DNA of 63,513 nucleotides, the filler included, from Thraustochytrium aureum (taxonomy: Eukaryota): NCBI GenBank assembly GCA_012862495.1. It is 5 parts of 4 records of this genome, joined end to end, with 100 filler letters (N's around TTAATTAATTAA, not from the genome) between each part and the next. Parts side by side here need not be neighbours in the genome. Positions count along the whole stretch, not along the records: positions 1 to 21,704 come from BLSG01000312.1; 4 more parts are not named here. One strand, 5' to 3'. The notes under the pieces are model-generated. The model had not been told where the DNA came from, ran no database searches, and saw nothing but the letters and a program-made list of their open reading frames with translations. Below, piece by piece: positions 1 through 63,461 of the stretch; the first letter of the stretch is position 1; the number at the start of each line of letters is the position of its first letter. A program made the translations under genes and the position numbers.

Positions 1-2073
1 GGCGCAGCCAGCCAAAGTCGGGGTGGCGGAACGAGCGCGCTGTTGGCGAGCGGGTGGTCCGCGGGAAGGCGACCGAGGAGCTGGCCGGGAAGCTCGCGCC
101 AGTCGCGGTTGACGGCGTTCAGGCTCTTCTCGACGGCGCGCGCGGCGAGCTTGGCGTGGTCGCCAAGGCCGTCTGCGCGGTCGACGTCTGCAACGAGCTG
201 CGGGGCTGCACCGGCCTCGGCGACCTTCACGAGCCAGTAAACGTCGAGCAGCTTGTCAGAGACAGCCCCGAGCTGCTCGCTCTTGACGAGGTGGAAAACG
301 AGGTGGCGCGCTGCGAACCGAGTTGCTACGCCAGCCGCAGCGCCTCGGCGAGACTCGTGTGGCCTTGCTTGACGTCGACCGCGAAAGGTTCTTTGTCATT
401 GTCGGTGCCGCCCGACTTTATTTCGCCAGCGCGGTCCTCGTCGAGCAGAAACTCGCTCATAGATTTGTTAATGAAGCCGACCGAGTGCTCGCGCACGTCA
501 AGGAAGACGCTGGCTTTTCGCAAAAAGCCCTTGAGCTTGCCCTTGCCTTCAATGCCGAGCAGCTTTCCGACAACTTCGAGCGGGAGCCGCTCGCGGGCGA
601 CGGCCATGCTGCCGAGCAGCGCTTGGTACTTGCCGTAATCGCCCGTGAGCGGGCCCTCCAGAAAGCGCNNNNNNNNNNNNNNNNNNNNNNNNNNNNNNNN
701 NNNNNNNNNNNNNNNNNNNNNNNNNNNNNNNNNNNNNNNNNNNNNNNNNNNNNNNNNNNNNNNNNNNNNNNNNNNNNNNNNNNNNNNNNNNNNNNNNNNN
801 NNNNNNNNNNNNNNNNNNNNNNNNNNNNNNNNNNNNNNNNNNNNNNNNNNNNNNNNNNNNNNNNNNNNNNNNNNNNNNNNNNNNNNNNNNNNNNNNNNNN
901 NNNNNNNNNNNNNNNNNNNNNNNNNNNNNNNNNNNNNNNNNNNNNNNNNNNNNNNNNNNNNNNNNNNNNNNNNNNNNNNNNCGACGCTCTGTGTCGGCGC
1001 GGCTACTGCCTTGCACGGCCCCGCGACGACCTCGCGGAACAGGTCGCTCATGTTGGTGATTTTGTCCAACTCTGCGCGGTCGAGCTTTTGGAGCGCCTCC
1101 TTTAGCCCCGGCAGGACGCCGGCGAGCTGGTTGGCGATCGAGTACAGGCAGGTGCGCACGCTGGAGGAGGTAGCGTCGTCAAACTTGAAAAAGTGCGCCG
1201 CGCCTACCAACAGCGAATTGTTCTTGCTAGCGCTCCAGCGCCGGGGATCAAAGCTGAAACGCTGTGAGGCGCGTTTGCCCTTTTGCCTGGATTCGCGCTT
1301 GGCGAGCAGACCGCCCTCGTGGCAGAGCTCGGCCAAAAGCACCGACTTGCCAAATCCGGCGGGGCCAAGAAACACCATGACGCGGTGCTTCTTCGTCTTG
1401 ACAAGGTCGTCTTTGTACCAGCGGTGGACGTCTTGGCGCGCCGCCTCGCGCGTGCCCTCTTCGTAGTCGCTGGCCTTGTTCAGGGCCGATATGAGCGGGT
1501 TGAACCCAGGCGGCAGCTTGAAGATCTCGCTCAACTTGCCCTGGTCTGCTGCCGTAAGCGCATCCAAGGGCCGTTGCTCCTTGGGGAGGGTCTTGGCCTC
1601 GATGATGGCAGCCAGGCCCGCCATGGTCTCCTCGAAGTTCTCGCTCACTTTCTGGAAGAGTTCACCGGCAAGGTGGAGACCAAGGATGCCCNNNNNNNNN
1701 NNNNNNNNNNNNNNNNNNNNNNNNNNNNNNNNNNNNNNNNNNNNNNNNNNNNNNNNNNNNNNNNNNNNNNNNNNNNNNNNNNNNNNNNNNNNNNNNNNNN
1801 NNNNNNNNNNNNNNNNNNNNNNNNNNNNNNNNNNNNNNNNNNNNNNNNNNNNNNNNNNNNNNNNNNNNNNNNNNNNNNNNNNNNNNNNNNNNNNNCATTG
1901 TCACCTCGAACGTTCTGGCGGTCGAACCAGACCTCCCAGCCCTTCTCGCGCTCCATCCACCCCGCGGCCTCCTCCACCACCGCCTTGGCTGAGCGACCGA
2001 GCACGACAGAATTCCAATCGTACGAGATCACGACCTTCGTCGGGCGCGCCGCCGCCGCCGCCGCCGCCGCCAT
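1..2073 (-). CDS. NLR-like TIR-NACHT protein; 3' end runs off the window, two N gaps and one frameshift near 335
   Basis: N-terminal KVVISYDWN...WEVWFDRQN is TIR_2-like. Walker A VMVFLGPAGFGKS, then AHFFKFDD...LYSIANQLA of NACHT-WD40-type NACHTs. After the stop at 326 another frame continues RHLVFHL...LLDVYWL...ELPGQLLGRL, the post-NACHT helical region that usually precedes WD40 repeats. Confidence 0.8.
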
Positions 2074-3015
2074 CTCTCGCGACGTCTCTCTCGCCCGACC
2101 CTCCTTTGCCACCGCCACGCTGTGCCGCAGCCACGCTGCCTCGCTCGTGGCGGCATGCATTTTGCAAGCAAGATCCGAGTCAGGGCAACTCCGGTTGCTC
2201 GATGTTAGAGTACGCTAAACTTGGGGGTGCTTGCCGTACGCTCGTGCGCTGCATTCTCTGCTGTTCCTCGTTTAAACCTCGCAACAACGCAACGACAACG
2301 TAACGTCAGAATCATCACCATTGCATTCGCCGAGACTCGCGGCTGACTTAACCTCTCACCGGTAGGGCCTCTTCCGCGACTCTATACATTCTGGCGGCTA
2401 ATCAACCGTTTCAAAATCCTTGTTTTTGGCGTTCAAAATTGGCCGCCAGATCCATTTTTTGTTGGTGGTCCGTGTGCACAGGATTCTCGTGGACGGGCAA
2501 CCCGGGTCTCAGATTTTGCGGCACACCCGTTACGAAGCGCAACCGCAATTGAGGTGGCGCCGCACAATAACGCAAAACGCGACGGGTGCGACAGGGGCAG
2601 CCCGGCCGGCTGGCCGGGCTTCTGGAAGGCCGGAGTGAGGCTTGCGCAGGAGTAGCTCGAGTGCGATGCCTGCGGCTCATTCTACTCTACCTAGCTTCTC
2701 CGCCCCTTGGCTGGCAGGGCTTCCAGCTTGTAGAGTGGGCGGGGCGCCGGACCTTGCGAGAAGAATCAAATCAAATCACCCCGCGCCGAAGCAGACCCCC
2801 AACCAAGCCGAGCAGCGCAAAGAGAGCTACTTTCTGGCAGAGCAAGCGGCGCAGAGCAAGCGGCAGAGAGCGGCGAACGTTGACTGGCGCAGGTCGAGTC
2901 GGAGCGAGCGCGAGAGCGCGAGAGCGGAGCAGAAAGGCGTGGAAATTTCCGAGCCCACAACGAACAACGCAGTGCGGCGGGCGGGCGACAGAGCGCAGCA
3001 CACAAGGCAGAGGCG

Positions 3016-5781
3016 ATGAGCGAGGCGGTGCTGGCAAAGCGTGCGGAGCGCGAGGCGCGCATCAGGATGCTGTACGAAGAGTACATCCAGCTGCACCCGG
3101 TCATGGAGACCTGGCACTCGCCGGTGACGGACAAGCCCCGCATCGAGCCCTGCTTTGCGGCGGGCATGCAGAGCATCGAACTCACGTTCGTGCTGCTCTC
3201 GCGCTTCCTTTCGGACGAGCGAGAGTACGTGGTCAAGCGACCGCGCATTGAGCGCGTTGCCGCCGATATCCAGGAGCAATGCCGCCTGCTGGCTGAGATC
3301 GTGGATGGCGAGCTCGAAGACGAAAACGTACCCGACGTCGTGCTCGGCTCCCTGACGCAGGCCTTTCCCTTCGACGGGTCGCCCCCAACGACGAGCGAGC
3401 GCGATTGCGACAGGGCGCGCCAGTCCGTGGCCCTCGACCTGGTCATCGACGCCGCACGCGCAGTGTTCCCGCGGCTGCGGGTCGAGGAGAAGCACTCGCT
3501 GCGAAAGGTAATCCGCAACGTGACCGGCACCTTCCAAACCCACTTTAGCGAGTGGACAGTCGGGATCGGGCTTGAGGAGCAACTCTCCGAGCTCCGTGTG
3601 CTCGTGGGCCTCGCGCCGTTCCAAGTCCCCTTCGGACGGAAATACCTCGACTTTGGCCGCCTTGTGCGCCCCAGGGTCATCGTCGACGCGCTCAACGCGG
3701 TCGAGTACCGGCACAAGGAGGACTTTTTCTTCCGCAGCGTTCACCTCGGAACCGAGTGCTGGTGCTTTGTCGCCCTTGAGAGGCTTCGCTCAGCGCTGGG
3801 CCAGATCGAGTCCTTCAACCACTGGGACAACGCCGCCGCGCACGTTCGCAGCGCGGCGAACATTTTGGAGTACCTCGGCAACCACGTCATGCTCTTGACC
3901 TCAATGGTCCTTCGCGACTACTTGAAGCTCAAGGTCGAGATCGAGGGCACCTCTGGCGCTGGGTCCGCTGCCGTCAAGCTCCTGCGAAGCTCGACCGAAG
4001 CGCTTTTCGCCCCGTTCGTTTCAGCTCTCGCCGGCTCGAGCGAGGCCGCCGCAGCGCTGCCGGAGGGCGGTCTTGAGGACCTTATCCTCGATCTGTACAA
4101 GCACCCCGAGCGGCAGCCTGGCATGTACAACTACGCCAAGAGTCTCGAGACGGTTGAATCCGGCCTGCTCGGGGGGTTCTTTTTCCGCCACTACTGTCTG
4201 GCCAGCAACGTGATCGGGTCTGGAGCCAAAGGGACCATGAAGATGGCAGTTCAGGCTCTCAAAAAGACCTACGAGCGCCCTGTGTTCCCGATCCTGGACT
4301 TTGTGCGCGCAGAGCTTGGCCGCCGCACCGACGAAGAGCTTGCGCACCTCAAGGGCCGCATCATGGACGAAATCGAAGAGCAAAAGCGATCTGGAACGCC
4401 GCCGCGTCGCGAGTTCGTGTCGAGCGACGCCCTGCAGCGGCAGCGGTCGTCTGAGGACGACTTTGAGGCGACGCGCCTCGCGCTTTACTCTGAGGAAGGC
4501 ATCCCCGACCTATTCCTTGCCGCCGCGCGAAACGAACGCGCTCACCGCGGCGATGCTCTGGCCTTTCTCGATCACGCATGGGGGCGCACGCCACCGGCGG
4601 CGCTTGCTGGCGCTTTGCGGCAGCAGTACGCGCTTTTAGACCTGGGCAACCGCGCTTGGGACGTTTTCTTCCAAGAACTGCTCCCGGAGGCGGCGGGCCA
4701 CGTTCGCCGCGTCCTCGATGCCGAGCGACAAGCGCCAGTGGAGTTTGGGCACAACAGCCACGAGCTTGCGTTTCGCCTGATCTCGATCAAGCTGGACGCC
4801 GTTCTGGGCGGGCCAAAGCAAAAGGTCCGTGTCTTGCTGACAGACGCCGAGTTCTACTCCATAACCCGTCAGGTGAACCGCCTCTCGGAAACCTCCAGCA
4901 TTGCTCTCGACATTGTGCCGGCCGAGCCGGTCGAGACCTTTGCTGACCGCCTCGTCAGCCAAGCGTCCAAGGGCTACGACATTGTCTACGTCTCACAGTG
5001 CACGTACTTGACGCAGCAAACGCTCGTTCCTGACGTGCCCAGCCTTGCGTCGCGCCTAAACGAGGCGATGGGAGTCCCGGACGCAAACTGCGCCGACGCG
5101 GGTGCGCCGTTCCTCGTGGTTGACGGATACCACGGCTTTGGCGCAATCCCGACCACGCTGCGAGGCGCACCTGGCAACTTGTTCTACGTTGCGGGGGTTC
5201 TCAAGCACGTGGCCGGAGGTCCAAACTGTGCCTTTGTTGTCACGCCTCCGGGGCGCGAGCTGCGCCCGTTTGTCACAGGGTGGCTCGCCGATCCGACCGT
5301 GCTTGCACCGAATGCCGCCGGCGTTTCGGTCGGGTCTAGCGTCGGCTACACGCCAGGGTTTGCGCTCATGGGGGGCACCCCTAGCTTTCTTCCCGCCGTC
5401 CTGGGCTTTGTGCAGGTTATGCGTCGATGGCTGGAGCGCGGTGTGACGGTCGAAAAGGTTCACGCGCATGTCCTCGGTCTCCATGAGAGGTTCGTGGGAG
5501 GCCTGCCTCCAGTGGGGCCCATCTCGCTTGAGACGCTGCGCAAACCGAAGGCTGGCCGCTGCCGCTCGCACACGCTGGTCTTCCAACAGGCCTCTCCTGA
5601 AGAAGCCACGCGCGTTGTCAAGGTGCTTTTCAATGACAAGCAAGTCGAGGTGGACACGCGTAAGGGAGTTGTCCGGGTCGGGTTTGGGCTCAACCACTCG
5701 CTCGGCGATGTGACTCGTCTGCTACATGCCGTGCAAGGCGCTGCATGGGATCCCCCCGGCAGCCGGGAGGGGCAGGTGTAA
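3016..5781 (+). CDS. Fusion of a tryptophan 2,3-dioxygenase-like heme domain and a class V PLP (kynureninase-like) domain
   Basis: Uninterrupted 921-aa ORF. TDO-colinear motifs HKEDFFFRSVHLGTECW, DY, TSGAGS, FFRH..., VIG..KGT, VFPILDFVR (about nt 3640-4320). PLP motifs FGHNSHEL, LTDAEFYSITRQ, VDGYHGFGA, GVLKH (Schiff-base Lys), TGWLA, VRVGFG. Confidence 0.85.
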   Translation: MSEAVLAKRAEREARIRMLYEEYIQLHPVMETWHSPVTDKPRIEPCFAAGMQSIELTFVLLSRFLSDEREYVVKRPRIERVAADIQEQCRLLAEIVDGELEDENVPDVVLGSLTQAFPFDGSPPTTSERDCDRARQSVALDLVIDAARAVFPRLRVEEKHSLRKVIRNVTGTFQTHFSEWTVGIGLEEQLSELRVLVGLAPFQVPFGRKYLDFGRLVRPRVIVDALNAVEYRHKEDFFFRSVHLGTECWCFVALERLRSALGQIESFNHWDNAAAHVRSAANILEYLGNHVMLLTSMVLRDYLKLKVEIEGTSGAGSAAVKLLRSSTEALFAPFVSALAGSSEAAAALPEGGLEDLILDLYKHPERQPGMYNYAKSLETVESGLLGGFFFRHYCLASNVIGSGAKGTMKMAVQALKKTYERPVFPILDFVRAELGRRTDEELAHLKGRIMDEIEEQKRSGTPPRREFVSSDALQRQRSSEDDFEATRLALYSEEGIPDLFLAAARNERAHRGDALAFLDHAWGRTPPAALAGALRQQYALLDLGNRAWDVFFQELLPEAAGHVRRVLDAERQAPVEFGHNSHELAFRLISIKLDAVLGGPKQKVRVLLTDAEFYSITRQVNRLSETSSIALDIVPAEPVETFADRLVSQASKGYDIVYVSQCTYLTQQTLVPDVPSLASRLNEAMGVPDANCADAGAPFLVVDGYHGFGAIPTTLRGAPGNLFYVAGVLKHVAGGPNCAFVVTPPGRELRPFVTGWLADPTVLAPNAAGVSVGSSVGYTPGFALMGGTPSFLPAVLGFVQVMRRWLERGVTVEKVHAHVLGLHERFVGGLPPVGPISLETLRKPKAGRCRSHTLVFQQASPEEATRVVKVLFNDKQVEVDTRKGVVRVGFGLNHSLGDVTRLLHAVQGAAWDPPGSREGQV

Positions 5782-5992
5782 ACGAAACTTGCACCTGCAG
5801 CGCATCGTTGCAAGTGTTTACAAGCACCGCACGGGCCGGGCAACGCTCGACGCCGCAAGAAGCACAACACCAATCCTAATCTTCATCGTTTCGATCGACA
5901 GGTTCTCTACATCGCATTTGCCTCTCTTCGAGTCGGCCCGTCCGTGGTCGCCGCGGCTCCAGGTCCAAAGCGCGCCGTGGAGGATTGCCCAA

Positions 5993-8900
5993 CTACCGGC
6001 ATAGCTCTGGGAAGGCGGCTTTGAACGCTGCTGTGTTGGCCTCCTTCTCCTCACCCGTCATCTCGCACCACAGTTTGGCTCCATACGAGAGCAAGAGCGA
6101 CTCAAGACGAGCTCGCGCGGGGTCGTCTTTGGGGCGCTCGTACACTATCGATAGCGCCGTTTTGCCCTCTGTCGAGGTCGAGCCGCGCGGCGAGGCCATG
6201 TTCACGTTGGCCCCATGTTCCAGCAAGACCTCCATGCAGTCCACGTAGCCGTTTTGCGTCGCAACGTGCAGCGAACACGTTCCAAACGGGACGTTGACCG
6301 GATTGTCCACTTCGGCGCCGCAATCGATGAGGAGCTTGACCGTGCTCGCATGACCCGCGACGCAAGCAGCAGCAAGAGCGCACACGCCAAGTTGGACGCG
6401 TTCATTGACGAGCTCCTTGGCAGAGACCACGTTGCCTTGCGAGGCGCTGGCGAGCAGCTGCCGCACATAAGCATTCCGCCCCTGAATCGCAGCAATGACC
6501 AAAGCGTCGACCGTCTTGGCCCCGGCTCTGATGAGCGCGGCAGCCACCTTGTTGAACCCGCAGGTCGACGCCATCAACAAAACCGAGTCCCTCTCGTTGC
6601 TCTTGGCGGTCGCAAGCATGCCCTTGCTCAAAAGAAACTCGACGGCCTCGACGCTGTTTTGCTCGACGGCAAACACGAGGCACGTACACCCCCTCCGCGA
6701 GGTGGCTGTCTTGTATGTTTCGTGGTGGCAGTCTAGCTCGACCAAAACCTGCAGCATCTCCATATCGTTGCGCGCTGCAGCCCACATCGTCGGAGTCATA
6801 TTGGTCGAGCCTTGCGCGAAGAGCTGCTGTGGGTCTGCTTCCAAAATCGCTATGACACCTTCCACATCTCCAGCTTTCACCTTCGCGATGATCTCTGGCT
6901 CGCGGTCCAGCCTTTCCCCCAGAATGTCCTTGTCGCCTTGGGTTTCAAGCAAGATGCGGTGGCACTCCAGGTTGTTTCGGCAAGTCGCCAAGTTGGCCGC
7001 GTCCCACGACAAGTGGTTGAGCTTCCGCGTGAGCGTCAAGGTCGCCTCCCTGTCGACCTGCGAGAGCAGCGCGCGCACATAGTTCGTGCGATTGTGCTCC
7101 GCCGCATGGTGCAAGCAAGTGTTGAAGTTCACGTCGGCGAGAAAGAGCATGTCGCTTGATGCCAGCTCACCATAGCACTTGTTTATCGTCTCGCGCAGCG
7201 AGAGAAACGCGACAAGGACTGCGGCGTTGCCAGCGGCCGCGACCGCCAGCCAAATGCCCTTGAGCGCCTTGAATGTCGCCATGCCAGCGTGGTTGTGCGC
7301 GAATAGGCCTCGAACGGCACTGTGCACGAGCGCCTCGCTGTGGCGCTCGTGCAGAAAGTCGCAGACGGCGAGGACACGTCGTGCCACCAAGGGTNNNNNN
7401 NNNNNNNNNNNNNNNNNNNNNNNNNNNNNNNNNNNNNNNNNNNNNNNNNNNNNNNNNNNNNNNNNNNNNNNNNNNNNNNNNNNNNNNNNNNNNNNNNNNN
7501 NNNNNNNNNNNNNNNNNNNNNNNNNNNNNNNNNNNNNNNNNNNNNNNNNNNNNNNNNNNNNNNNNNNNNNNNNNNNNNNNNNNNNNNNNNNNNNNNNNNN
7601 NNNNNNNNNNNNNNNNNNNNNNNNNNNNNNACTTGGCGTTCGAAGGCCACATCAGATACTGGCCCGCTGCGCGATCGTTCTGCGTTTCCATCACTTGACA
7701 GTTGCGCAACAGCCTGGAGTTGATCTGTGATGCGCTCCGCTGCGAGATGCTCCTGCAAAGTGAGGTGAGCAAACATGACAGTCGCTCAAGACCACCCCGC
7801 GCACAATCATCTCGCTTGACCTCGCGCTGCACGAAGAGAGGAACGTGGTCGCGACCGATACTTCTCTGCAACGCGTTGCAGACGTCGACGGCGCGGAGCG
7901 TCGACCGCGCTGGCGATTCAGCCGAGCCGCGAGCCCCGACCAGGCCTGGGCAAGCCTCTGCGGCGGCCGGTTCCTGCCACTCCAGCAGGACTGCTGCAAA
8001 GTCTTCGAGTGTGATGTCTCGAACGTTTTTGCAGTGCGTGTGAAGAGCGACGCGGCGCAAGAGCTCGAGCGCGACCTCGTCTTCCAGGAGGTCAAAGTCC
8101 CGCTCGATGATTTTGTCCTCCTTGCCTGCTCGCCGCCGGTACTTTGTGGCGTCGCCACGTCGAAGCATTTGCTCAATTGCGATGGCGAAGAGCCGCGACC
8201 GCGAGAGCGCTGCAGTCCCCGCGCCGGCCGCGGGCTCTGCGCCTGGAGCTACCAAGTCAGGAGACGCCCGTGCACTTTTCGGGGCAGCCCGCAGCGCAAC
8301 CAGGCCCTGGCAGCTTGAGGTTGCCCCCTCGCGGCCCTCTGGCATCCGGTCTCGGGCTGCGCGGTCGTCCTCGTCTCGAAGCGACGACAGAACATGAATG
8401 AGTAAGCTGAGCATCATCGGATTCTGCGCCAGCTCTGCGTATTCTGGTTGCTCCAGCTGCGCCTCCAAATAAGCAGCGCGATCTGCACCGCGCTCAAATG
8501 CGGACGTTGAACTCCGCCAACGCGAGGATCGCTGTTTGACTCGACGGCGAATGATTTTCCTAATCATCTCCTGGGTCAGCGGCTTGACCTTCGCGGTGGC
8601 AAATCCACTCGACTTGAGTGCTTCAATGTGCGCCGAGATGCTCGTTTCGCGAGAGGTCAGGATAACGCGCTGGGAGAGGTTGCGGCGAAGGAAGGACACG
8701 AGCCATCCCATGATTACGCCTCCCGCCGACCCGCTCTCATCAAACCCATCCAGGAGGAGGAGTATCCTGCCCGAGGCCAACGCTCTCTTTAGAAACTCTG
8801 TCTTTTGCGAGAGCGCACCAAACTTTTCCGTCAAGTAGACCCCGAGCAAGTCGTCGCCCGCCTCGAGTCGGAGCCGAGTAATGTGCCGGCCCATGTCGAT

Positions 8901-11900
8901 AAGCAGCACACGAAGAGGAACGAGGCAGTCGTGTGCTTTGAGGTTCTGCTCAAGAGCGCCGTACACGAGCGCCTTCCTCAAGAGCACGCTCTTGCCCGAG
9001 GCTGGGGCGCCAAGGATAACAATGCGCCGTTGTTCCACGAGGTTTGCCTCGGGCGGCAGCAGACTGTTTAGGCTGTTCAAATACGCGCTCGCCGTGCGGT
9101 CCTCCGCCCTTGCCAGCCGCTGGACCTCGGCGTCCAGTGCGGCGTGCTCGAGCATGTTGAGCTTGTCGCCGGCGTCGTCTGAGGTGCCCCGCTCGATTGC
9201 GTTGGCAACCAGCCGCTCAACCAAGACGTGGCAAAGGTCATCTTTGAAAGCAAATCCTGCCTGTGGCGCGCCGCTGCGGAGTCCGAGAAAAGCTGACATA
9301 AACTCGCCAACGTCTGTCGGAAGCAGCCCGAGTTCCGTGGCAGCCTCACGAAACCGGATCACAGCCTGGGCCTGCGAGCCTCTGATCCCGTCGGGGACCT
9401 GCGCTCCATGCCGAAGAAGTCTCTCGACGTCGGCATTGGAGAGCGTTCGAAGCTCCACCAATGCATCTTCGAGGCTCTGCTGTGCCAACGCGAGCCGCTC
9501 TTTGAGGTCTCCGAACCCCGGTGCCATAGTGGCCGACTTGCAATTTCTCTGGCCTCTGTTTCCGGTGTCCTGCTCTGCAATATCCAGGTTGACGCACTGG
9601 TGCAGCACGGACAGCTTGCGACGCGAGACGGGGTCCACAAAGTGACCGTCTTTGGCGCCAACCGCGGTAAAGTACTTGACGCGCTCCCTCGAGTACGCCA
9701 GTGCGCCCAATTCGATTGCGTCTTGCAATTCGCTGCCTGGCACAGACACCTGATGCACGGACAGGCATTTGATGCCAATCCTGCGAGCGACATCAGGGCT
9801 GATCATCTCTACGACCCGCGCAGCATGCCCCAAAGCAGACGCAAGGGCGAGCCGACGTTGGGCGGCGCATAGCTCGCGAAAGGACAGCGTTTTTACAGCA
9901 TGGTACAGGCGCCCAGAGTGCAGGCCCAGCGAATTGGGCTCGTCCTGAAGGTACGCCGGGGCGTGCTGGCGTATCATGCATATCGCGCTCCACGCCTGCT
10001 CGATGAATTGCGCGCCTGGTTTGCTAAAGTCGACTCCTAGCGAAGCGAGCGGCGGCGGCGGCCCGAGTTCGCCTGCCACGAGGGCTTGGAGGAGCTTGAT
10101 AAAGTCCGCTTCGCAGGCACCTTCGACACCAGAGGCACCAAGTCGCGTGTACTCGAACAGGATGGTATTCTCGAGCTTGGCAACGTCGTGCGCAACAGGG
10201 CCGGGACCAGAGAACGCAAAGTCGATTAGCCACACGATGCCCTCGCTGTCGATGAGAATGTTGCAGCCATTCAGATCGCCATGGACGTGCCCCATGAGAC
10301 GCAACCGGTCCCTGCGCTTGCCCTCGGCCTGCACTTCACCGTATTCTAGTTGGGCGTGCTCGTCGAGAACAGCCTTGACCTCCTTGAAGAATGTTCGCAC
10401 GTCCATCTTTCTTGCACCAGTCCACTCCTCCACCAGCTGGACGGACAGCGGGCCTTCCAGCAGCAGAGCGAGCGCATCATCAGGTTTCGGCGAGAATACG
10501 TGCTTGTCAAGCTGACGGGACACCTCGAAACCGCCAGGCGCGAATATGCTCTTTTCCTCGACGAACCTCGCCTCCGTGGCGCCGCGCAAAAGAATTGAGC
10601 CAAACACCTCGTTGAGCACGGCATTGGTCTCCCCGGCAGGGGCAACATCGCTCTGGCCTGGGTTGCTCGAAAGACTTCGCGAGCTGGCACTAGGCCCGCT
10701 AAAAAAGTGGGGCGAGCTGCTTCGCTCGCCCGCTGGGCCAATCCAGGAGGCAGGACCGCCGAGCGACTCACCTCAGCTTCGTAGAGGTCTTTGAAAGTGC
10801 TGATCGAGTCATTGACATGGTTCTTGAGCGTCGGGAGGCACCACGTTGCTCCGCACAACTCGATGCGCAGCGCAGCCATTCCTTCGTGCTCTGCGATGGC
10901 TAGGACCTTGGGAGAGTTCTCGCCGAGCAGCGGGGCCATGGCTCGCATCCGTTCGTACTCGTCTCTCAAAAAGGCCACCTCGTCAACCTTGACAACGCAA
11001 GGGACCTCCACGGTGCCGTCGTACAAAGTCGACCCACATCGAAAAACCCTGGCCGAGCTAAACCCGCCGCTGAGAGTCTCGACCTTGATTTTGCAGGCAG
11101 AGGGAAACACGGCTTGCAGGAGCACCCTAAGCGGCTCGGACAAGGCGTTGCCGGCCACCCCAACAAACATGCAGGCGCGCAGCCGCGCACGGACGACCTC
11201 GATCATTTCCCGTCCAATTTCGCCGGTCGCAGGAAAGCCTGCGAGAACCTTGGCGCTCGCTTCGGGCGAGAAGCCCCACCGGAAGACAAGCGAGTCTCGA
11301 AGGTCTTCGAGGTCGAGCGCTCCCTTCGCCGAGGCCTCGAGGTCAAATATGTCGGCGGGCTGATTGCGCGGTGCAGCTCCAAGAGCCGCGTTTGGTTGCT
11401 CGACACTGTCGCGCCGCGTCTCGACACGCGCCCCCTCCAGCTCTGTCTTGGCGCAGTTGTCCCGCCAGACCCAGCAACGCTTGCGGAATTCCCCGTTGCT
11501 GGTTTCAACTCGAAACGAATTGATTGGCATGTGCAGCTTGCGCACAACTGCATCGGGCAGCACGACTTTAATTTCGTTTGTCTGCGAGTCTGGAGGGAGG
11601 AACCTGATCTCATCCACAGGCAAGGGCTTTCCCGTACCGACGCCAATCTCTGTCGCGTCCTTTGACTCCTCTTCCTCCTCCGGGCCAATTGGAGACGAGT
11701 GCTGGCCAACCACATTTGCCTCCCTTTGTGGTGCCTGGCGACGTGCAGACGCCGCGTTGTTGGCTTGAATTGCACTTTCGGCTCGTCGGTCTCCCTGGTG
11801 GTTGGAGATATCCCCTGCCATGTCACTCGACACATGTGCGCGCTCGGCGAGGAACTCGCTTACTGGTGGAAGGTTGATGCACAGCTCCCGGACTGCAGCC

Positions 11901-12232
11901 TGCCTCCAGTCCGTCTCACCTGGAGCGAGCTCCACGGAGAGAGTCATGCGATAGTTGAGGCGCAACGTCCCGTCCTCCTGGATCTCCGTCGCGAGCACAA
12001 GAATTCGTTCTCCGCTCGCCTCCCCGCATATTCTCAGGTGAACCGCGCGGTTCACGGCGCTTGCAAGCTCCTTGGCCTTGCTGAGCTGCAGCCGGCGTGC
12101 CGAAAGTGGCCTGTCTGCTGGAGTTTTGCGCTCGATCGCAGTGATTTGCCCCACGCGCCTCTGTTTTGGAGACAGAGCCGCGGCTGCGTCCTCGAGCGTC
12201 TTGTCTGTCGCGCGCGCGTCTCTGTCGTCCAT
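5993..12232 (-). CDS. Large NLR-like protein: APH/TCAD9-like kinase fold + NACHT + ankyrin repeats (one intron, frameshifts near 7790 and 7375, N gap)
   Basis: LSGGFSSARVF...PCVVKVD...E, HGDLNGCNILID...LIDFA...DVAKLE (kinase fold). ILGAPASGKS, LLLLDGFDE, RVILTSR, NPMMLSL, FAHLTLQEHLAA, WWHDV (NACHT). Multiple ankyrin repeats (TCLHHAAEHN, TPTMWAAARN, SLHVATQNGYVDCMEVLLEHGANVN). Confidence 0.85.
10653..10771 (-). other. Predicted 119-nt GT-AG intron in the kinase-NACHT-ankyrin gene
   Basis: Minus-strand GAG|GTGAGT donor at 10771 and CAG| acceptor at 10653 join ORF 10346..12232 in frame to ORF 7167..10619 (FKDLYEAE|SDVAPAGETNAVLNEVFG). Confidence 0.6.
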
Positions 12233-23507: not shown

Positions 23508-24392
23508 CTAGTAAACACCGACGCCCACGACGTGCGCGATGAGGTTGCCTGCAGCGCGGTACTTCTCGATGTTGGCGGGGTCTGCTGACCACTGCGCGCT
23601 TTCCAACGCGTATGGCGGCGCCGAAAATTCGTACACGCCGATAAAGTGGCCTATGAAGGCGACGTACCATTGGAAAAAGGGCTCGTGCGCGTCCAGTCCT
23701 TCCTCCCGCGCGCTCCAGAACATTAGACTCATCCACATCCTGCAGTCGTCCAGCTTGAATCGCCGGCCATGCTTTCCCGGCTCGCGCTTCGGCGAGGTCC
23801 AAGCGTCGCGATGTGCCGTCTGCCTCGCGTCTGGGGGCCTGCGCGAGGTCCACACTGGCTCGCCACTCATCTTTTCGATTATCCAGGTGCCGAGGCGCTC
23901 CCCATGTGGGTCATCGTGCGACCGGATGAAGCGATCGAGCGCTTTGTCTTCGAACGCGTGATTGTAGAACCGTTCGGTCATTGCGAGAATCGCGTCGTGC
24001 CCCACGTCATTGAGCAGCGCTTTGGAAGTCTCCGTCGCGACCATTGTGCGATAGTTGAGGCCGAGCCGGACCTGACCGGTCACCGTTTGCCGTGCCAGCA
24101 AGGCCTCGACCTTTTCTTCGCGCGTTCGCAGCTCGCCGTGAGGGATTCTATCGCGCTCTCCGGCCTCGGAAGGCGCGGTCCCGGCCTCCACTTCTTGGAC
24201 TTGTTCGATTGCTGTTGCTCCTGCTTCTTCCTGCCGCAGCCGCAGCGCCTTTGCCAGCTTGGCCTTGCTGACCTTTCCGTCTTTGCTCCCTGCGACGAGG
24301 CTGTCGAACACCGACTTGTCCCAATCCTTTCCTGCCGCCACCTTGGCTTCCAGCTCGCTGAGCCTTCCGCGGGCGGAGGCCGCGTTGCCCAT
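23508..24392 (-). CDS. Truncated (2/2) hemoglobin-like protein with an N-terminal myristoylation-like extension
   Basis: VG..AI..MTERFY...ED..L..F, H..RL..W..E..SG...W, AH, F...D...WM..M resemble group II truncated globins; protein starts MGNAAS. Confidence 0.7.
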   Translation of the reverse strand: MGNAASARGRLSELEAKVAAGKDWDKSVFDSLVAGSKDGKVSKAKLAKALRLRQEEAGATAIEQVQEVEAGTAPSEAGERDRIPHGELRTREEKVEALLARQTVTGQVRLGLNYRTMVATETSKALLNDVGHDAILAMTERFYNHAFEDKALDRFIRSHDDPHGERLGTWIIEKMSGEPVWTSRRPPDARQTAHRDAWTSPKREPGKHGRRFKLDDCRMWMSLMFWSAREEGLDAHEPFFQWYVAFIGHFIGVYEFSAPPYALESAQWSADPANIEKYRAAGNLIAHVVGVGVY

Positions 24393-60381: not shown

Positions 60382-61074
60382 CTAGAACTTGGCGGGGCCC
60401 TCGCTCGGCATCGCGTCGTAAAAGCCCACGTTCTTGTCCACCGCCCAGGCGGGGTGCAGTCGCGGGAACACGTCTTGCTGCACGCCGTATAGGTCCATGA
60501 CGTGCGTGCGGTCGCTCGTGGCGATTGGGCGGTCGATCGTCGCCCACTCGCGCTCGGGGTTGCGGAAGAGCGTCAGGTCGGGGTCCGCGTGCGCGTAGGG
60601 CATCTCGTCGGCCACGCCGTGCCTGGCCCACCCCTCCTGTGCGTAGTGATTCATCATCTGCGCGAGCCCGGGCAGCTCGTCGGCCACCTCTCGCGCGGCG
60701 CCCTCCAGCAGGCGCGCGATGATCTGCTCGTGCGTCTCCTGCTCCACCATGACGTTTCGCGTCGCCGGTTCGACGCCGTAGAAGGCGGCCATCTCGGGCT
60801 CCTCGTAGACCCCGTAATTGGGCATCTGGAACTGCTGGTCGGGCCCCTGGTTTACGGCGAAGCGGCGCTGCAGCACCTCCATGAACCTCTCGCGCATCTC
60901 GGGGCTGTAAGCCAGCTGGCCGCCGCCGAAGCGGCCCGCGAGGATGTCCAAGCCGCGTCTGATCACCTCTGGCTTGAAGATCTCATCCTGCAGGAGGGCG
61001 TCGCCGCGGACGACGCGGTAGTAGAGTGACTGGTTGTCCTGGCCGGCGTCTGCGTGGAAGCGCGGGTGTGCCAT
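60382..61074 (-). CDS. Hypothetical protein weakly resembling NCLDV minor capsid P8/DUF5761
   Basis: Intact 230-aa ORF; L...IF..E.I, QII..LL......V..EL.....Y and IDRPIATS recall the P8 pattern (judged by eye). Confidence 0.4.
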   Translation of the reverse strand: MAHPRFHADAGQDNQSLYYRVVRGDALLQDEIFKPEVIRRGLDILAGRFGGGQLAYSPEMRERFMEVLQRRFAVNQGPDQQFQMPNYGVYEEPEMAAFYGVEPATRNVMVEQETHEQIIARLLEGAAREVADELPGLAQMMNHYAQEGWARHGVADEMPYAHADPDLTLFRNPEREWATIDRPIATSDRTHVMDLYGVQQDVFPRLHPAWAVDKNVGFYDAMPSEGPAKF

Positions 61075-61140
61075 GCTCGCCCTGCACTCGTGCGAGACAA
61101 AAAATCACACGCCAGCGATCATGGGTGCGCGTGCGTTTCG

Positions 61141-63461
61141 CTAGCACACGACCATGGGCTTGCGTTCCCCAGCGGAGACGTGGTCGGACACGTCGAGGTG
61201 GAACACCTCGAGCGAGAGCAGCAGCTGCCGGNNNNNNNNNNNNNNNNNNNNNNNNNNNNNNNNNNNNNNNNNNNNNNNNNNNNNNNNNNNNNNNNNNNNN
61301 NNNNNNNNNNNNNNACCGAGCGCAGGACGACGCCGCCGATGGCGCGCACGGTGAGGTTCAGCCTGCGCAGTCGCGGGATGGGCTTGGAGAGAAGGCGAGC
61401 GCCGAGGGGAAGCTCTGTCGCGTGGTGCGGGCCGTGGCGAGGTCCCCGAGGCCGCGCTGCGGGAAGACCGCCTCCCAGGGGCTGCTCTCCGGTATCCATC
61501 GATGTAGAGGTAGATTGCGCGCGGGGAGACCCTCGTGGCCTCCAGGTCGACCGAGTCGTCGACCAGGCCGCCCTCCATCTGTGTGTTGGCCGCGCGGAGG
61601 CGAAGGACGCGCACGCCGCCCGCCTGGTCCGCGCCGACAAGCGGCACAGAGCCGATGGCGACCGTGCCGCCGTCGGCGGAGAGCGACACGGAGAAGCCCA
61701 CCTCGTCGCCTATTCTGTCGCCGCCAATGCTGGAGTCCCGTTGGGTCCAGAGCCCCTCCCAGGCCCCATTCGCGAAGCGCACGATGCGGGCGCTGCCCCT
61801 CCCGCTCTCCGCCTGGGGCGAGCCGGCGGCGAGCGTCTGGCCGTCGCCGGACAGCGCGACCGACCAGCCGAACTTCTCGGAGCCTTCTTCGCCAAAGATG
61901 GTGGCGCCCTTCTGCACCCACGAGCCAGAATCGAGGAGGAAGACGCGCACGCGGCCGTAGTCTTGCAGTGTGGCGCCCTTGCTCCAGGGGGCGCCCGCGG
62001 CCACCGTCTCGCCGTCCGCGGATAGCGAGACCGACGAGCCGAGTCGGTCCCCGCCCTCCTCGCCATCCACGTCGGCCCCAAGCTGGGTCCAGGTGCCCGC
62101 CAGCAGCCGAAACACGCGGACCCTCCCTGCCTGGAAGGCTCCCAGGAGGCTGAAGGGCGACCCTACTGCGACGGTTTCGCCATCGGCCGCGAGGGCCACC
62201 GACCAGCCGGCGCCGTCCCAGAGGGCCTGGCCCTCGATCTTGGCGCCGAGCTGGACCCAGGAGTTCGAAACGAGGCGAAACACGCGCACGTGGCCCTCGC
62301 CCGAGGAAAACAGGCTGTCGCTGTCTGGCGAACCGATCGCGACCGTGTTGCCGTCTGCCGAGAGCGAGACGGAAAACCCCTGTTTCGTCGCCGGAGCTCG
62401 AGCCCTCCGATGGTGGCGCCAAGTTGCTCCCAGTCGCCGGAGACGAGTCGGTAGACGCGCGTGCTGCCCATGCCGGGGTCGGTGCTGTCGTTGTAGGGCG
62501 CGCCGACCGCGATGGTGTTTCCGTCTGCAGAAAGCGCGACCGAGAACCCGAACAGGTCGTTGTCGGTCGCGCCCGAGGTCCCGAACGAGCCGTCGTCGGC
62601 CCCCGTGATCACGGAGCCGAGCTGGTCCCACTGGCCGGCGACGAGTCGGTGCACCCGCACGATGCTCAGAGGGGCGCTGCCCTGGCCAGCGAAAGGCGAG
62701 CCGATTGCCACGGTGTTTCCGTCTGCAGAGAGGGCTGCCGGGCGGCCGTCTTGGCCCCAACTCTCCACGCTGGTGCTGATCTGGTCGCCCAGCGCCTGCC
62801 ACACTTGGTCGGTGCCACCAGCGGGCACACTGAGGCTCGACGTACGGGACGAGAGGTTGAGTCGCTTCGCGAGCAAGGGGTCAATGAGCTGGGTCTCGAC
62901 GCGGAAACTGTACCTGGGCTCGGTCTCGGGTAGGTTGCCCTCGCCGTCGGCGAGGAAGATGGCGTAGGTGTCTGTGCTGGAGAGAAACATGAAGCTGAAG
63001 GTGACGTCCGTCACGCCCGGGTGGTTCGTCTGGAGCGCGAGCGTGAGCATCTCCGCGATGTCCTGGACGAGCGCGCCCGCGTAGCGTAGTCGCTTGCGGC
63101 GCGTGGGGACCTTCCGCGGCTCGCCCTGGATCAGCGAGCTCGCGAAGCGCACGCGCCTTGGGGCCCTGTGCGGCAGCGAATCGTCTATCTGGAGCTGGTC
63201 GGTGCGCAGCGTGGTCTCCCAGCCCGTGTCGAGGTTGCGCAGCGTGACCACGAAGGGGCTCGTGACCACGGAGGCCGCGGGGAGCGAGAAGGACTGGAGC
63301 TCCACGCCGACCACGTTCTCGACGAAGTGCGGCATCTCCAGAGTGGCGCGGATCGTGTCTTGGCCGAAGCGCACGTCCGACATGGCCTTCTCGGCGTGGA
63401 AGAGGCTGCTCTGGAGGAAGGGCCTGGCCGAGTCTGTCACGGCGTGCCCGAAGCTCGGCAT
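61141..63461 (-). CDS. Penton/minor-capsid-like single jelly-roll protein with inserted FG-GAP-type beta-propeller; frameshifts near 62390 and 61485, N gap
   Basis: N-terminal LEMPHFVENVVGVELQSFSLP and C-terminal IYLYIDGY...PIPRLRRLNLTVRAIGG...LLLSLEVF match NCLDV/Polinton-type penton-like motifs. About 7 repeats of (F/G)GxSV(A/S)LSADGxT(V/I)A(I/V)G(A/S)P...VRV(F/Y)RL...WxQLG lie between them. Confidence 0.65.

What the first reader, a model, noticed from the sequence alone, without database searches (positions are those of the whole stretch)
3016..5781. Single-chain TDO-like heme oxygenase fused to a kynureninase-like PLP enzyme
Seen: one clean 921-aa ORF with no gap or frameshift, carrying TDO-colinear motifs followed by a full class V PLP domain. 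Known: TDO (KynA) and kynureninase (KynU) are steps 1 and 3 of the kynurenine pathway and are normally separate proteins, with kynurenine formamidase between them. Inference: the fusion may channel Trp to N-formylkynurenine and on to (formyl)anthranilate plus alanine, or act on a modified Trp. I do not know of a described eukaryotic fusion of this kind. The PLP half looks like the bacterial kynureninase-like subfamily (TDxEFxSxxRQ, DGYH), which hints at gene transfer.
Basis: partly seen in the sequence, partly recalled or inferred. Interest (0 to 1): 0.85.

Follow-up and report, generated by a model that had tools for sequence, protein, structure and literature searches.

The report
Algal HSPRO heme enzyme–kynureninase fusion
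This gene, shared with many algae and related protists, joins a relative of the plant 'nematode-resistance' HSPRO proteins, predicted to fold as a tryptophan-dioxygenase-type heme enzyme, to a kynureninase-like vitamin-B6 enzyme, so it likely breaks down tryptophan in two steps and suggests that plant HSPRO proteins may be tryptophan-oxidising enzymes.

Summary
The 921-aa ORF is real, gap-free and bridged by independent contigs. It is a TDO pseudo-dimer in one chain: a heme-less first copy carrying the Tyr cap, then a copy with both histidines (Z 15.6 to Xanthomonas TDO). The C-half is a class V PLP enzyme of an unstudied bacterial kynureninase-like subfamily, whose genes lie directly beside a TDO gene in 48 of 80 bacterial loci. 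The fusion is not unique: 24 other near-full-length copies were found, among them Chlorella, Nannochloris, Hondaea and Triparma; this scan had also noted it in a diatom. The halves co-diverge and derive from two different bacterial subfamilies, long ago. Best reading: Trp to N-formylkynurenine to (formyl)anthranilate plus alanine (about 0.5). Against it: the TDO Arg is Lys, the GTGGS loop is altered and the kynureninase Tyr226 is lost, so neither half is a member of the canonical family and the chemistry is untested. The main value is as a Rosetta stone for plant HSPRO proteins, whose land-plant sequences I could not inspect.

The parts
3016..5781 (+). Intronless ORF, 921 aa: HSPRO-type tandem TDO module fused to a kynureninase-like PLP enzyme
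   Evidence: contigs bridging the junction; 24 other near-full-length fusions
3055..3615 (+). Repeat 1 (aa 14-200) = Pfam Hs1pro-1_N; degenerate TDO copy with no conserved heme histidine; Tyr20 and Tyr23 match the TDO N-terminal YxxY cap
   Evidence: PF07231 over cut-off; profile-profile match to 48 TDOs P 77%, E 2e-5, score 40.2 against at most 23.5 in 40 block shuffles; Y20 in 27/29 eukaryotic and 31/31 bacterial rows
3637..4350 (+). Repeat 2 (aa 208-445), predicted catalytic heme domain: His243 (codon at 3742) = XcTDO His55; Lys306 (3931) in place of Arg117; His392 (4189) = proximal His240; Thr407 (4234) = Thr254
   Evidence: HMM alignments to 2nox and 2nw7; VIA Z 15.6, rmsd 2.8, 222 aligned to 2nw8; conservation counts
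4393..4449 (+). Low-confidence linker (aa 460-478), highly variable in length among homologs
   Evidence: pLDDT < 50; motif-to-motif distance 55-161 aa
4444..5757 (+). Class V PLP domain (aa ~477-914), kynureninase-like: Asp703, His706, Lys730 (codon at 5203), Trp756, Thr788, Arg887; Leu729 in place of Tyr226
   Evidence: the six residues invariant in 21/21 fusions
2807..5842 (+). Span covered by contigs of runs X1-X3, possibly the transcript with short UTRs
   Evidence: one study, RNA status guessed by the tool

Best explanation
The gene encodes one protein in which an HSPRO-family module, predicted to be a heme enzyme, likely opens the indole ring of L-tryptophan with O2, and a tethered PLP domain likely cleaves the product (N-formylkynurenine, or kynurenine after deformylation elsewhere) to (formyl)anthranilate plus alanine. 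In the N-half, repeat 2 would bind heme through His392 and hold Trp with His243, Lys306 and Thr407. Repeat 1 has no conserved heme ligand and would supply the Tyr20/Tyr23 cap that a neighbouring subunit gives in tetrameric TDO, so one chain replaces a TDO dimer. The C-half would bind PLP at Lys730 and, like other fold-type I enzymes, work as a dimer (recalled). The likely role is Trp catabolism or recycling to anthranilate, not NAD synthesis. Shown: ORF, architecture, conserved residues, distribution, bacterial gene pairing. Predicted: folds. Inferred: heme and PLP binding, substrate, products, role.
For: N-half model pLDDT 90.5, pTM 0.90; all 9 Foldseek hits at E<=0.001 are bacterial TDOs. 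H392 in 60/60 and H243 in 59/60 aligned family members. The nearest bacterial relatives (tandem TDO + SnoaL, ~540 aa) keep Arg, both His and SGxQS and hit PDB TDO at E 2e-20, bridging the family to TDO. R118K in MarE weakens substrate binding only about fivefold (KD 4.6 to 23.7 uM; PMC11904535, passages). The C-half profile's best PDB hit is P. fluorescens kynureninase, E 4e-16 against 6e-5 for the next; Foldseek rank 1 is the same chain. Of 80 bacterial loci of the C-half's nearest subfamily, 48 have a TDO gene adjacent with no gene between (41 tandem, 5 divergent, 2 convergent; 4 of these TDO ORFs confirmed by Pfam). Of 24 genomes tested from the 32 unlinked loci, 22 have a TDO elsewhere. 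Only 8 of 39 paired genomes have a canonical kynureninase over cut-off. The halves co-diverge in 19 fusions (Spearman 0.78, 0 of 2000 permutations). N-formylkynurenine deaminates to a thiol-reactive electrophile when hydrolases are scarce (bioRxiv 10.1101/2024.11.15.623703, passages), a reason to tie the consuming enzyme to the producer.
Against: Arg117 is Lys in 29/29 eukaryotic rows, SGFQS is SG(E/A)GS and GTGGS is mostly GT-M-K/N/R; small changes in this loop shift TDO towards monooxygenation (PMC12312684, abstract). MarE ties with TDO in the structure ranking (Z 15.8 against 15.6). Tyr226, which precedes the PLP lysine in kynureninase and in the bacterial subfamily, is Leu or Ile in 21/21 fusions. 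C-DES ties with kynureninase structurally (Z 31.0 against 30.9). The eukaryote-only profile finds no kynureninase in the PDB at E<=1, so the call rests on the bacterial relatives. Family scores are far under cut-off (TIGR03036 29.9 against 390.7 bits; no TIGR01814 hit). The TDOs beside the bacterial genes are canonical ones, not the tandem type, and the 8 tandem-TDO loci show no kynurenine-pathway neighbour among the 38 neighbouring ORFs scanned. No member of either subfamily has been assayed as far as my searches show.
Confidence: 0.5

Rival explanations
1. The N-half dioxygenates Trp, but the C-half, lacking Tyr226, transaminates or eliminates rather than hydrolyses, so the product is kynurenic acid or another quinoline or enone.
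For: Tyr226 lost in 21/21 fusions with an invariant His after the lysine; C-DES, SufS/NifS and PvdN lie within 1.5 Z of kynureninase.
Against: W756, T788 and R887 match kynureninase W256, T282 and R375; the eukaryotic C-halves group with the TDO-linked bacterial subfamily.
Confidence: 0.17
2. The N-half is a MarE- or PrnB-like heme oxygenase acting on Trp or a modified indole (monooxygenation, oxindole formation), and the pair makes a specialised metabolite.
For: MarE ties for the top structural match; altered GTGGS and SGFQS loops and Arg to Lys; bacterial relatives fused to SnoaL, MFS or condensation domains.
Against: Thr407 (TDO Thr254, which binds the Trp amino group; PMC11904535) is kept in 27/29 rows; the partner's subfamily is paired with true TDO in bacteria; a spread across green algae and stramenopiles suits a common substrate; no biosynthetic cluster in the window.
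Confidence: 0.2
3. It supplies the first and fourth steps of NAD synthesis by the kynurenine pathway, being the first enzyme that Ternes and Schoenknecht suggested is still unidentified in some stramenopiles.
For: PMC4217691 (passages) says the first enzyme may await identification in some stramenopiles and that Labyrinthulomycetes use this pathway; the window's protein groups with the Hondaea protein.
Against: The fusion also occurs in green algae, which use the aspartate pathway (same paper); the G-T motif (aa 787-788) matches the Pseudomonas enzyme that prefers unhydroxylated kynurenine (alignment; specificity role recalled); a monooxygenase step would have to come between the two fused reactions.
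Confidence: 0.07
4. One or both halves are no longer catalytic, and the protein is a heme- or Trp-sensing regulator, as plant HSPRO proteins are usually described in signalling terms.
For: [quoted passage not shown]
Against: Every cofactor ligand is invariant or nearly so across homologs 40-69% identical.
Confidence: 0.06

Closest known systems
Bacterial tryptophan 2,3-dioxygenase (Xanthomonas campestris 2nw7/2nw8; Ralstonia metallidurans 2nox)
   Same: Fold of aa 210-436, proximal and distal His, Phe51, Tyr113, Thr254 equivalents, N-terminal YxxY cap.
   Different: Two copies in one chain, the first without a heme ligand; Arg117 is Lys; altered SGFQS and GTGGS loops; about 20% identity; fused to a PLP enzyme.
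Plant Hs1pro-1 / HSPRO1-2 proteins (PF07231 + PF07014)
   Same: PF07231 over cut-off; PF07014 in 7 of 21 fusions at E<=0.1 and colinear with repeat 2 in a relative (P0140 aa 198-421, over cut-off); top ESM Atlas cluster is HSPRO2 at 0.94; NCBI names the Hondaea fusion HSPRO2.
   Different: Plant clusters are 435-479 aa with no PLP domain. Their active-site residues were not inspected here. They are described as resistance or LRR-like proteins (PMC7583174, passages).
Kynureninase KynU (Pseudomonas fluorescens 1qz9)
   Same: Fold (Z 30.9, rmsd 3.2, 378 aligned); D201, H204, K227, W256, T282, R375 equivalents.
   Different: Tyr226 lost; 15-16% identity; far from canonical KynU in the tree; no TIGR01814 hit.
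MarE, 2-oxindole-forming heme monooxygenase (9ca3, 8vyy)
   Same: TDO-type fold, Z 15.8; a non-GTGGS loop.
   Different: MarE keeps Arg118, has SLGGR and is a single-domain homotetramer acting on beta-methyl-Trp.
Bacterial kynA-kynB-kynU route to anthranilate
   Same: First and last chemistry inferred; bacterial relatives of the C-half sit beside kynA.
   Different: No formamidase gene between them in 48 of 48 adjacent pairs; here both are one chain in eukaryotes.

Membership tests
Tryptophan 2,3-dioxygenase (TIGR03036/PF03301) | TDO helical fold | tested here: met
   VIA Z 15.6, rmsd 2.8, 222 aligned to 2nw8; Foldseek
Tryptophan 2,3-dioxygenase (TIGR03036/PF03301) | Proximal heme His (His240) and distal His55 | tested here: met
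   H392 and H243
Tryptophan 2,3-dioxygenase (TIGR03036/PF03301) | Arg117 binding the Trp carboxylate | tested here: not met
   Lys306, in 29/29 eukaryotic rows
Tryptophan 2,3-dioxygenase (TIGR03036/PF03301) | GTGGS and SGFQS active-site loops | tested here: not met
   GTMKM and SGAGS; Gly-Thr kept
Tryptophan 2,3-dioxygenase (TIGR03036/PF03301) | Family score over the curated cut-off | tested here: not met
   29.9 against 390.7 bits; no PF03301 hit in this protein, 6 of 21 fusions hit at E<=0.1
Tryptophan 2,3-dioxygenase (TIGR03036/PF03301) | Heme binding and Trp dioxygenase activity | not testable with these tools
   needs purified protein
Hs1pro-1/HSPRO | PF07231 (Hs1pro-1_N) over gathering cut-off | tested here: met
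   37.2 bits against 25; 20 of 21 fusions match
Hs1pro-1/HSPRO | PF07014 (Hs1pro-1_C) following it | tested here: inconclusive
   no hit in this protein; 7 of 21 fusions; over cut-off in relatives P0137 and P0140
Hs1pro-1/HSPRO | Orthology to land-plant HSPRO1/2 and shared active-site residues | not tested
   no identified land-plant sequence was returned or 42 (best 150 of 617 hits shown)
Kynureninase (TIGR01814) | Fold-type I class V PLP fold | tested here: met
   shared with C-DES and SufS, so not specific
Kynureninase (TIGR01814) | PLP Lys, Asp, His, phosphate-binding Trp, carboxylate Arg, G-T motif | tested here: met
   K730, D703, H706, W756, R887, T788 in 21/21, mapped on 1qz9; roles recalled
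Kynureninase (TIGR01814) | Tyr226 before the PLP lysine | tested here: not met
   Leu in 15, Ile in 6 of 21; Tyr kept in the bacterial subfamily
Kynureninase (TIGR01814) | Family score over cut-off | tested here: not met
   no hit at E<=0.1
Cysteine desulfurase / selenocysteine lyase (the automatic JGI label) | Catalytic Cys loop before the last Arg | tested here: not met
   the loop with the Cys is an insertion absent from the profile in the 4w91 alignment; no conserved Cys there in A1

The most novel reading that the evidence does not exclude
HSPRO/Hs1pro-1 proteins, long filed as plant resistance or signalling proteins, are a third architecture of Trp ring-opening dioxygenase (a single-chain TDO pseudo-dimer). 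In algae and stramenopiles the module is fused to a new kynureninase subfamily that takes N-formylkynurenine directly, a formamidase-free one-gene route from Trp to formylanthranilate. In land plants the free module is the missing source of kynurenine-pathway metabolites and acts in defence by oxidising Trp.
Probability: 0.33. Interest if true: 0.9.

Novelty: new variant of a known kind. Interest (0 to 1): 0.7.

Why it matters
Plants and green algae are held to lack the kynurenine pathway (PMC4217691, PMC8151846; passages), yet kynurenine and kynurenic acid are reported in plants (bioRxiv 10.64898/2026.05.18.726114, start of abstract). HSPRO genes are stress- and pathogen-linked, and the role of Hs1pro-1 is in doubt (PMC7583174). 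A conserved fusion of an HSPRO module to a kynureninase-like enzyme gives a concrete substrate, cofactor and residues to test, which makes both questions directly testable. It also points to two unstudied bacterial subfamilies and to a possible route that skips formamidase. The folds and pathway themselves are well known, and the kinship of HSPRO to the TDO/IDO fold is probably already visible in databases (recalled Pfam clan and InterPro labels, not checked; PF03301 on 11% of one HSPRO2 Atlas cluster).

Tried and rejected
Assembly artefact or two genes: rejected (an MMETSP 'complete' transcript ORF of 979 aa lies in the nearest homolog's cluster). Recent transfer or contamination: rejected; GC3 0.77 against 0.73-0.92 for six other ORFs, eukaryotic neighbours, one eukaryotic clade per half (quick trees, SH-aLRT only; the careful tree did not finish). 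Fusion of a bacterial kynA-kynU pair as is: not supported, because the adjacent bacterial TDOs are canonical and lie outside the tandem clade. Cysteine desulfurase label: rejected (no Cys loop). Formamidase-free route: 0 of 40 paired genomes have KynB over cut-off, but 22 of 40 have weaker matches, none of the 14 control genomes passes the cut-off either, many are MAGs and alpha/beta-hydrolase formamidases were not sought; inconclusive. Single-sequence PDB search found nothing. No relative in viral contigs; plasmids gave two partial hits only. No listed run is on record as RNA; contig depth was not used to rank genes. No whole genome is held, so other kynurenine-pathway genes of the host could not be sought. 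Paper searches for a description of this fusion or of HSPRO as a dioxygenase: searches (0 papers; 0; 0; 5; 6; 5; 19; 17), seen as listings, none describing it; (4,467 papers, 12 listed, none with HSPRO) was uninformative. Subscription papers, including the primary HSPRO studies, are not in the library; no supplements were read.
Full report
Observation. The ORF 3016-5781 (+) encodes 921 aa, holds no N although the window has many gaps, and has an in-frame stop upstream. Three public runs of one study hold it (RNA is the tool's guess). Their contigs cover 2807-5842 without joints or indels, two of them bridge the junction of the halves, and none covers 2200-2720. Of 18 listed differences in the ORF, 16 are synonymous. 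The neighbours are ordinary eukaryotic genes (Vps36, a CAP-Gly protein, Mak16, myosin), unrelated to Trp metabolism. GC3 of the gene (0.77) lies within that of six other ORFs (0.73-0.92).

Distribution. A search among proteins of 506-1612 aa gave 31 hits, 20 of them full-length at 44-54% identity in alignment A1, including named proteins of Triparma laevis, Hondaea fermentalgiana, Chlorella variabilis and Nannochloris. Among the 279 proteins held at that point, 25 (this one included) carry nearly all of both halves and 35 carry parts of both. Proteins with the N-half only also exist, for example five Trebouxia models of about 490-584 aa; whether these are true stand-alone genes or split models was not tested. 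Pairwise identities of the two halves correlate across 19 fusions (two near-copies dropped; Spearman 0.78, 0 of 2000 permutations), which fits one old fusion. The window's protein groups with the Hondaea and Triparma proteins, so the host is likely a stramenopile; this rests on this gene alone.

The N-half. Its only Pfam hit is Hs1pro-1_N, aa 18-104, over cut-off; 20 of 21 fusions hit it and 7 hit Hs1pro-1_C. The top ESM Atlas cluster is plant HSPRO2 (0.94, 213 of 256 features). The profile of A1 finds PDB TDOs (2nox E 4e-7). An AlphaFold model of aa 1-460 is confident (pLDDT 90.5, pTM 0.90), and aa 210-436 superpose on Xanthomonas TDO 21-284 (Z 15.6, rmsd 2.8, 222 aligned), tied with MarE (Z 15.8) and above IDO1 and PrnB (Z 10-12). 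The mapping gives H243 = His55, Y302 = Tyr113, K306 = Arg117, H392 = His240, T407 = Thr254. In 29 eukaryotic and 31 bacterial rows, H392 is invariant and H243 is missing once; position 306 is Lys in all eukaryotic and Arg in all bacterial rows. Residues 14-200 align with a profile of 48 TDOs (P 77%, E 2e-5; score 40.2 against at most 23.5 in 40 block shuffles and 18.1 reversed) and weakly with repeat 2 (E 6e-4); with only 12 TDOs the first match was not significant (P 2%). This copy keeps the YxxY motif (Y20, Y23) but has Met at the distal His position (His one position later in 21 of 29) and no conserved proximal His. In MarE and TDO, Tyr24 comes from the neighbouring subunit to close the indole pocket (PMC11904535, passages). 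I infer that repeat 1 does this within the chain; no structural superposition of repeat 1 was possible.

Bacterial relatives of the N-half. A profile search of 1.84 billion representatives gave 617 hits at E<=0.001, of which 150 were shown. After the eukaryotic proteins come about 30 proteins of 510-590 aa with both repeats, nearly all with a C-terminal SnoaL-like domain; the named ones are from Herpetosiphonaceae and Nostocales, and I treated the group as bacterial. They keep the canonical Arg and SGxQS. In a quick tree of repeat 2 the eukaryotic sequences form one clade (100) that joins this group apart from canonical TDOs. Eight metagenome loci of the group show no shared neighbour among 38 of the 72 ORFs scanned. 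No identified land-plant HSPRO sequence came back, so the plant link rests on Pfam, Atlas and source names.

The C-half. aa ~477-914 have the class V PLP fold. Foldseek ranks Pseudomonas kynureninase 1qz9 first; VIA ties it with C-DES (Z 30.9 and 31.0). The nearest non-eukaryotic relatives are bacterial proteins of about 385 aa at 29-37% identity, labelled kynureninase or cysteine desulfurase by automatic pipelines. A profile of 7 fusion-type C-halves and 31 such proteins finds 1qz9 at E 4e-16, the next hit at 6e-5. D703, H706, K730, W756, T788 and R887 match D201, H204, K227, W256, T282 and R375 and are invariant in 21 fusions; Tyr226 is Leu or Ile and is followed by K-H. The roles of these kynureninase residues are recalled. 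The desulfurase Cys loop is absent. The eukaryotic C-halves form one clade on a long stem within or beside this bacterial subfamily, away from 8 canonical KynU sequences, with no donor resolved (quick tree).

Gene context of the bacterial subfamily. Of the 80 best GTDB loci (from 580 confirmed), 48 have a TDO gene directly adjacent: 41 in tandem upstream, 5 divergent, 2 convergent, none with a gene between. Of the 32 others, 24 genomes were searched and 22 have a TDO elsewhere. Of 39 paired genomes, 8 have a canonical kynureninase over cut-off. These loci include clusters of related species and many incomplete genomes, so the counts are not independent events. One row (L050, genome G022) is from a genome flagged unpublished. 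KynB passes its cut-off in 0 of 40, but the test is weak. So in bacteria this subfamily works with TDO, often as the only kynureninase candidate, and eukaryotes have joined it to a different, tandem TDO-type module.

Mechanism. The best reading is Trp + O2 to N-formylkynurenine at the repeat-2 heme, then PLP-dependent cleavage to formylanthranilate, or to anthranilate after deformylation elsewhere, plus alanine (0.5). That kynureninase can take N-formylkynurenine is recalled from pathway databases, not checked. N-formylkynurenine is reactive when hydrolases are scarce, which would favour a tether. The full-length model has pTM 0.53 and a disordered linker, and the stretch between the halves varies from 55 to 161 residues, so proximity is more likely than a tunnel. 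Rivals are a MarE-like oxygenation (0.2; loop changes shift TDO chemistry, PMC12312684, abstract), a transaminating or eliminating C-half (0.17), NAD synthesis (0.07) and a non-catalytic sensor (0.06). The Arg-to-Lys change alone is mild in MarE.

Comparison and novelty. It works like KynA plus KynU but fails membership of both curated families, and it belongs to the HSPRO family by its N-terminal Pfam domain. Automatic pipelines already label homologs with both activities or as HSPRO2. My ten paper searches found no description of the fusion or of HSPRO as a dioxygenase, in a library lacking most subscription papers. Papers seen: PMC4217691, PMC10080060, PMC5897657, PMC11904535, PMC8151846, PMC7583174 and the two bioRxiv preprints as passages; PMC12312684 as abstract; the rest as listings. 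This scan noted what appears to be the same fusion in a diatom, and an IDO-like plus kynureninase-like fusion in marine bacteria; these are unchecked notes, seen after I had my reading. Verdict: real, a new variant of a known kind, interest 0.7, mostly for the testable lead on plant HSPRO proteins.

Noticed in passing
P0157, P0158, P0176 and about 30 others; loci L081-L088: Unstudied bacterial family of about 540 aa: tandem TDO (HSPRO-like, with Arg and both His kept) plus a C-terminal SnoaL/ketosteroid-isomerase-like domain; single cases fused to an MFS transporter (P0190) or condensation-type domains (P0193). The SnoaL domain might act on N-formylkynurenine (speculation).
   Followed up: partly
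L001-L080, match near 5001-6100: Widespread bacterial kynureninase-like subfamily (AHSHH...GGYKY motifs; about 2300 stored GTDB stretches estimated), under the TIGR01814 cut-off in the members tested, adjacent to kynA without kynB in 48 of 80 loci.
   Followed up: partly
window 5993-12232 (-): Consecutive frames with TCAD9/kinase-like, NACHT and ankyrin domains, broken by an N gap and frame changes; contigs show single-base insertions at 7373 and 7782, so this may be one large gene with assembly errors. TCAD9 is recalled as a domain of prokaryotic conflict systems.
   Followed up: no
window 326-2160 (-): NACHT/NPHP3_N-type NTPase preceded by a segment that looks TIR-like by eye; interrupted by two N gaps.
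   Followed up: no
window 23508-24392 (-): 294-aa ORF whose C-terminal part looks like a truncated globin by eye; no Pfam hit at E<=0.001.
   Followed up: no
window 60382-63461 (-): A 230-aa ORF with a weak DUF5411 hit (under cut-off) and a 432-aa FG-GAP repeat ORF at the window's end; possibly foreign or virus-like, not examined.
   Followed up: no
ESM Atlas answer, rank 8: A cluster of 332-aa hypothetical proteins with Nucleocytoviricota as commonest phylum scored 0.91 against the N-half; the viral contig scan found no relative.
   Followed up: partly
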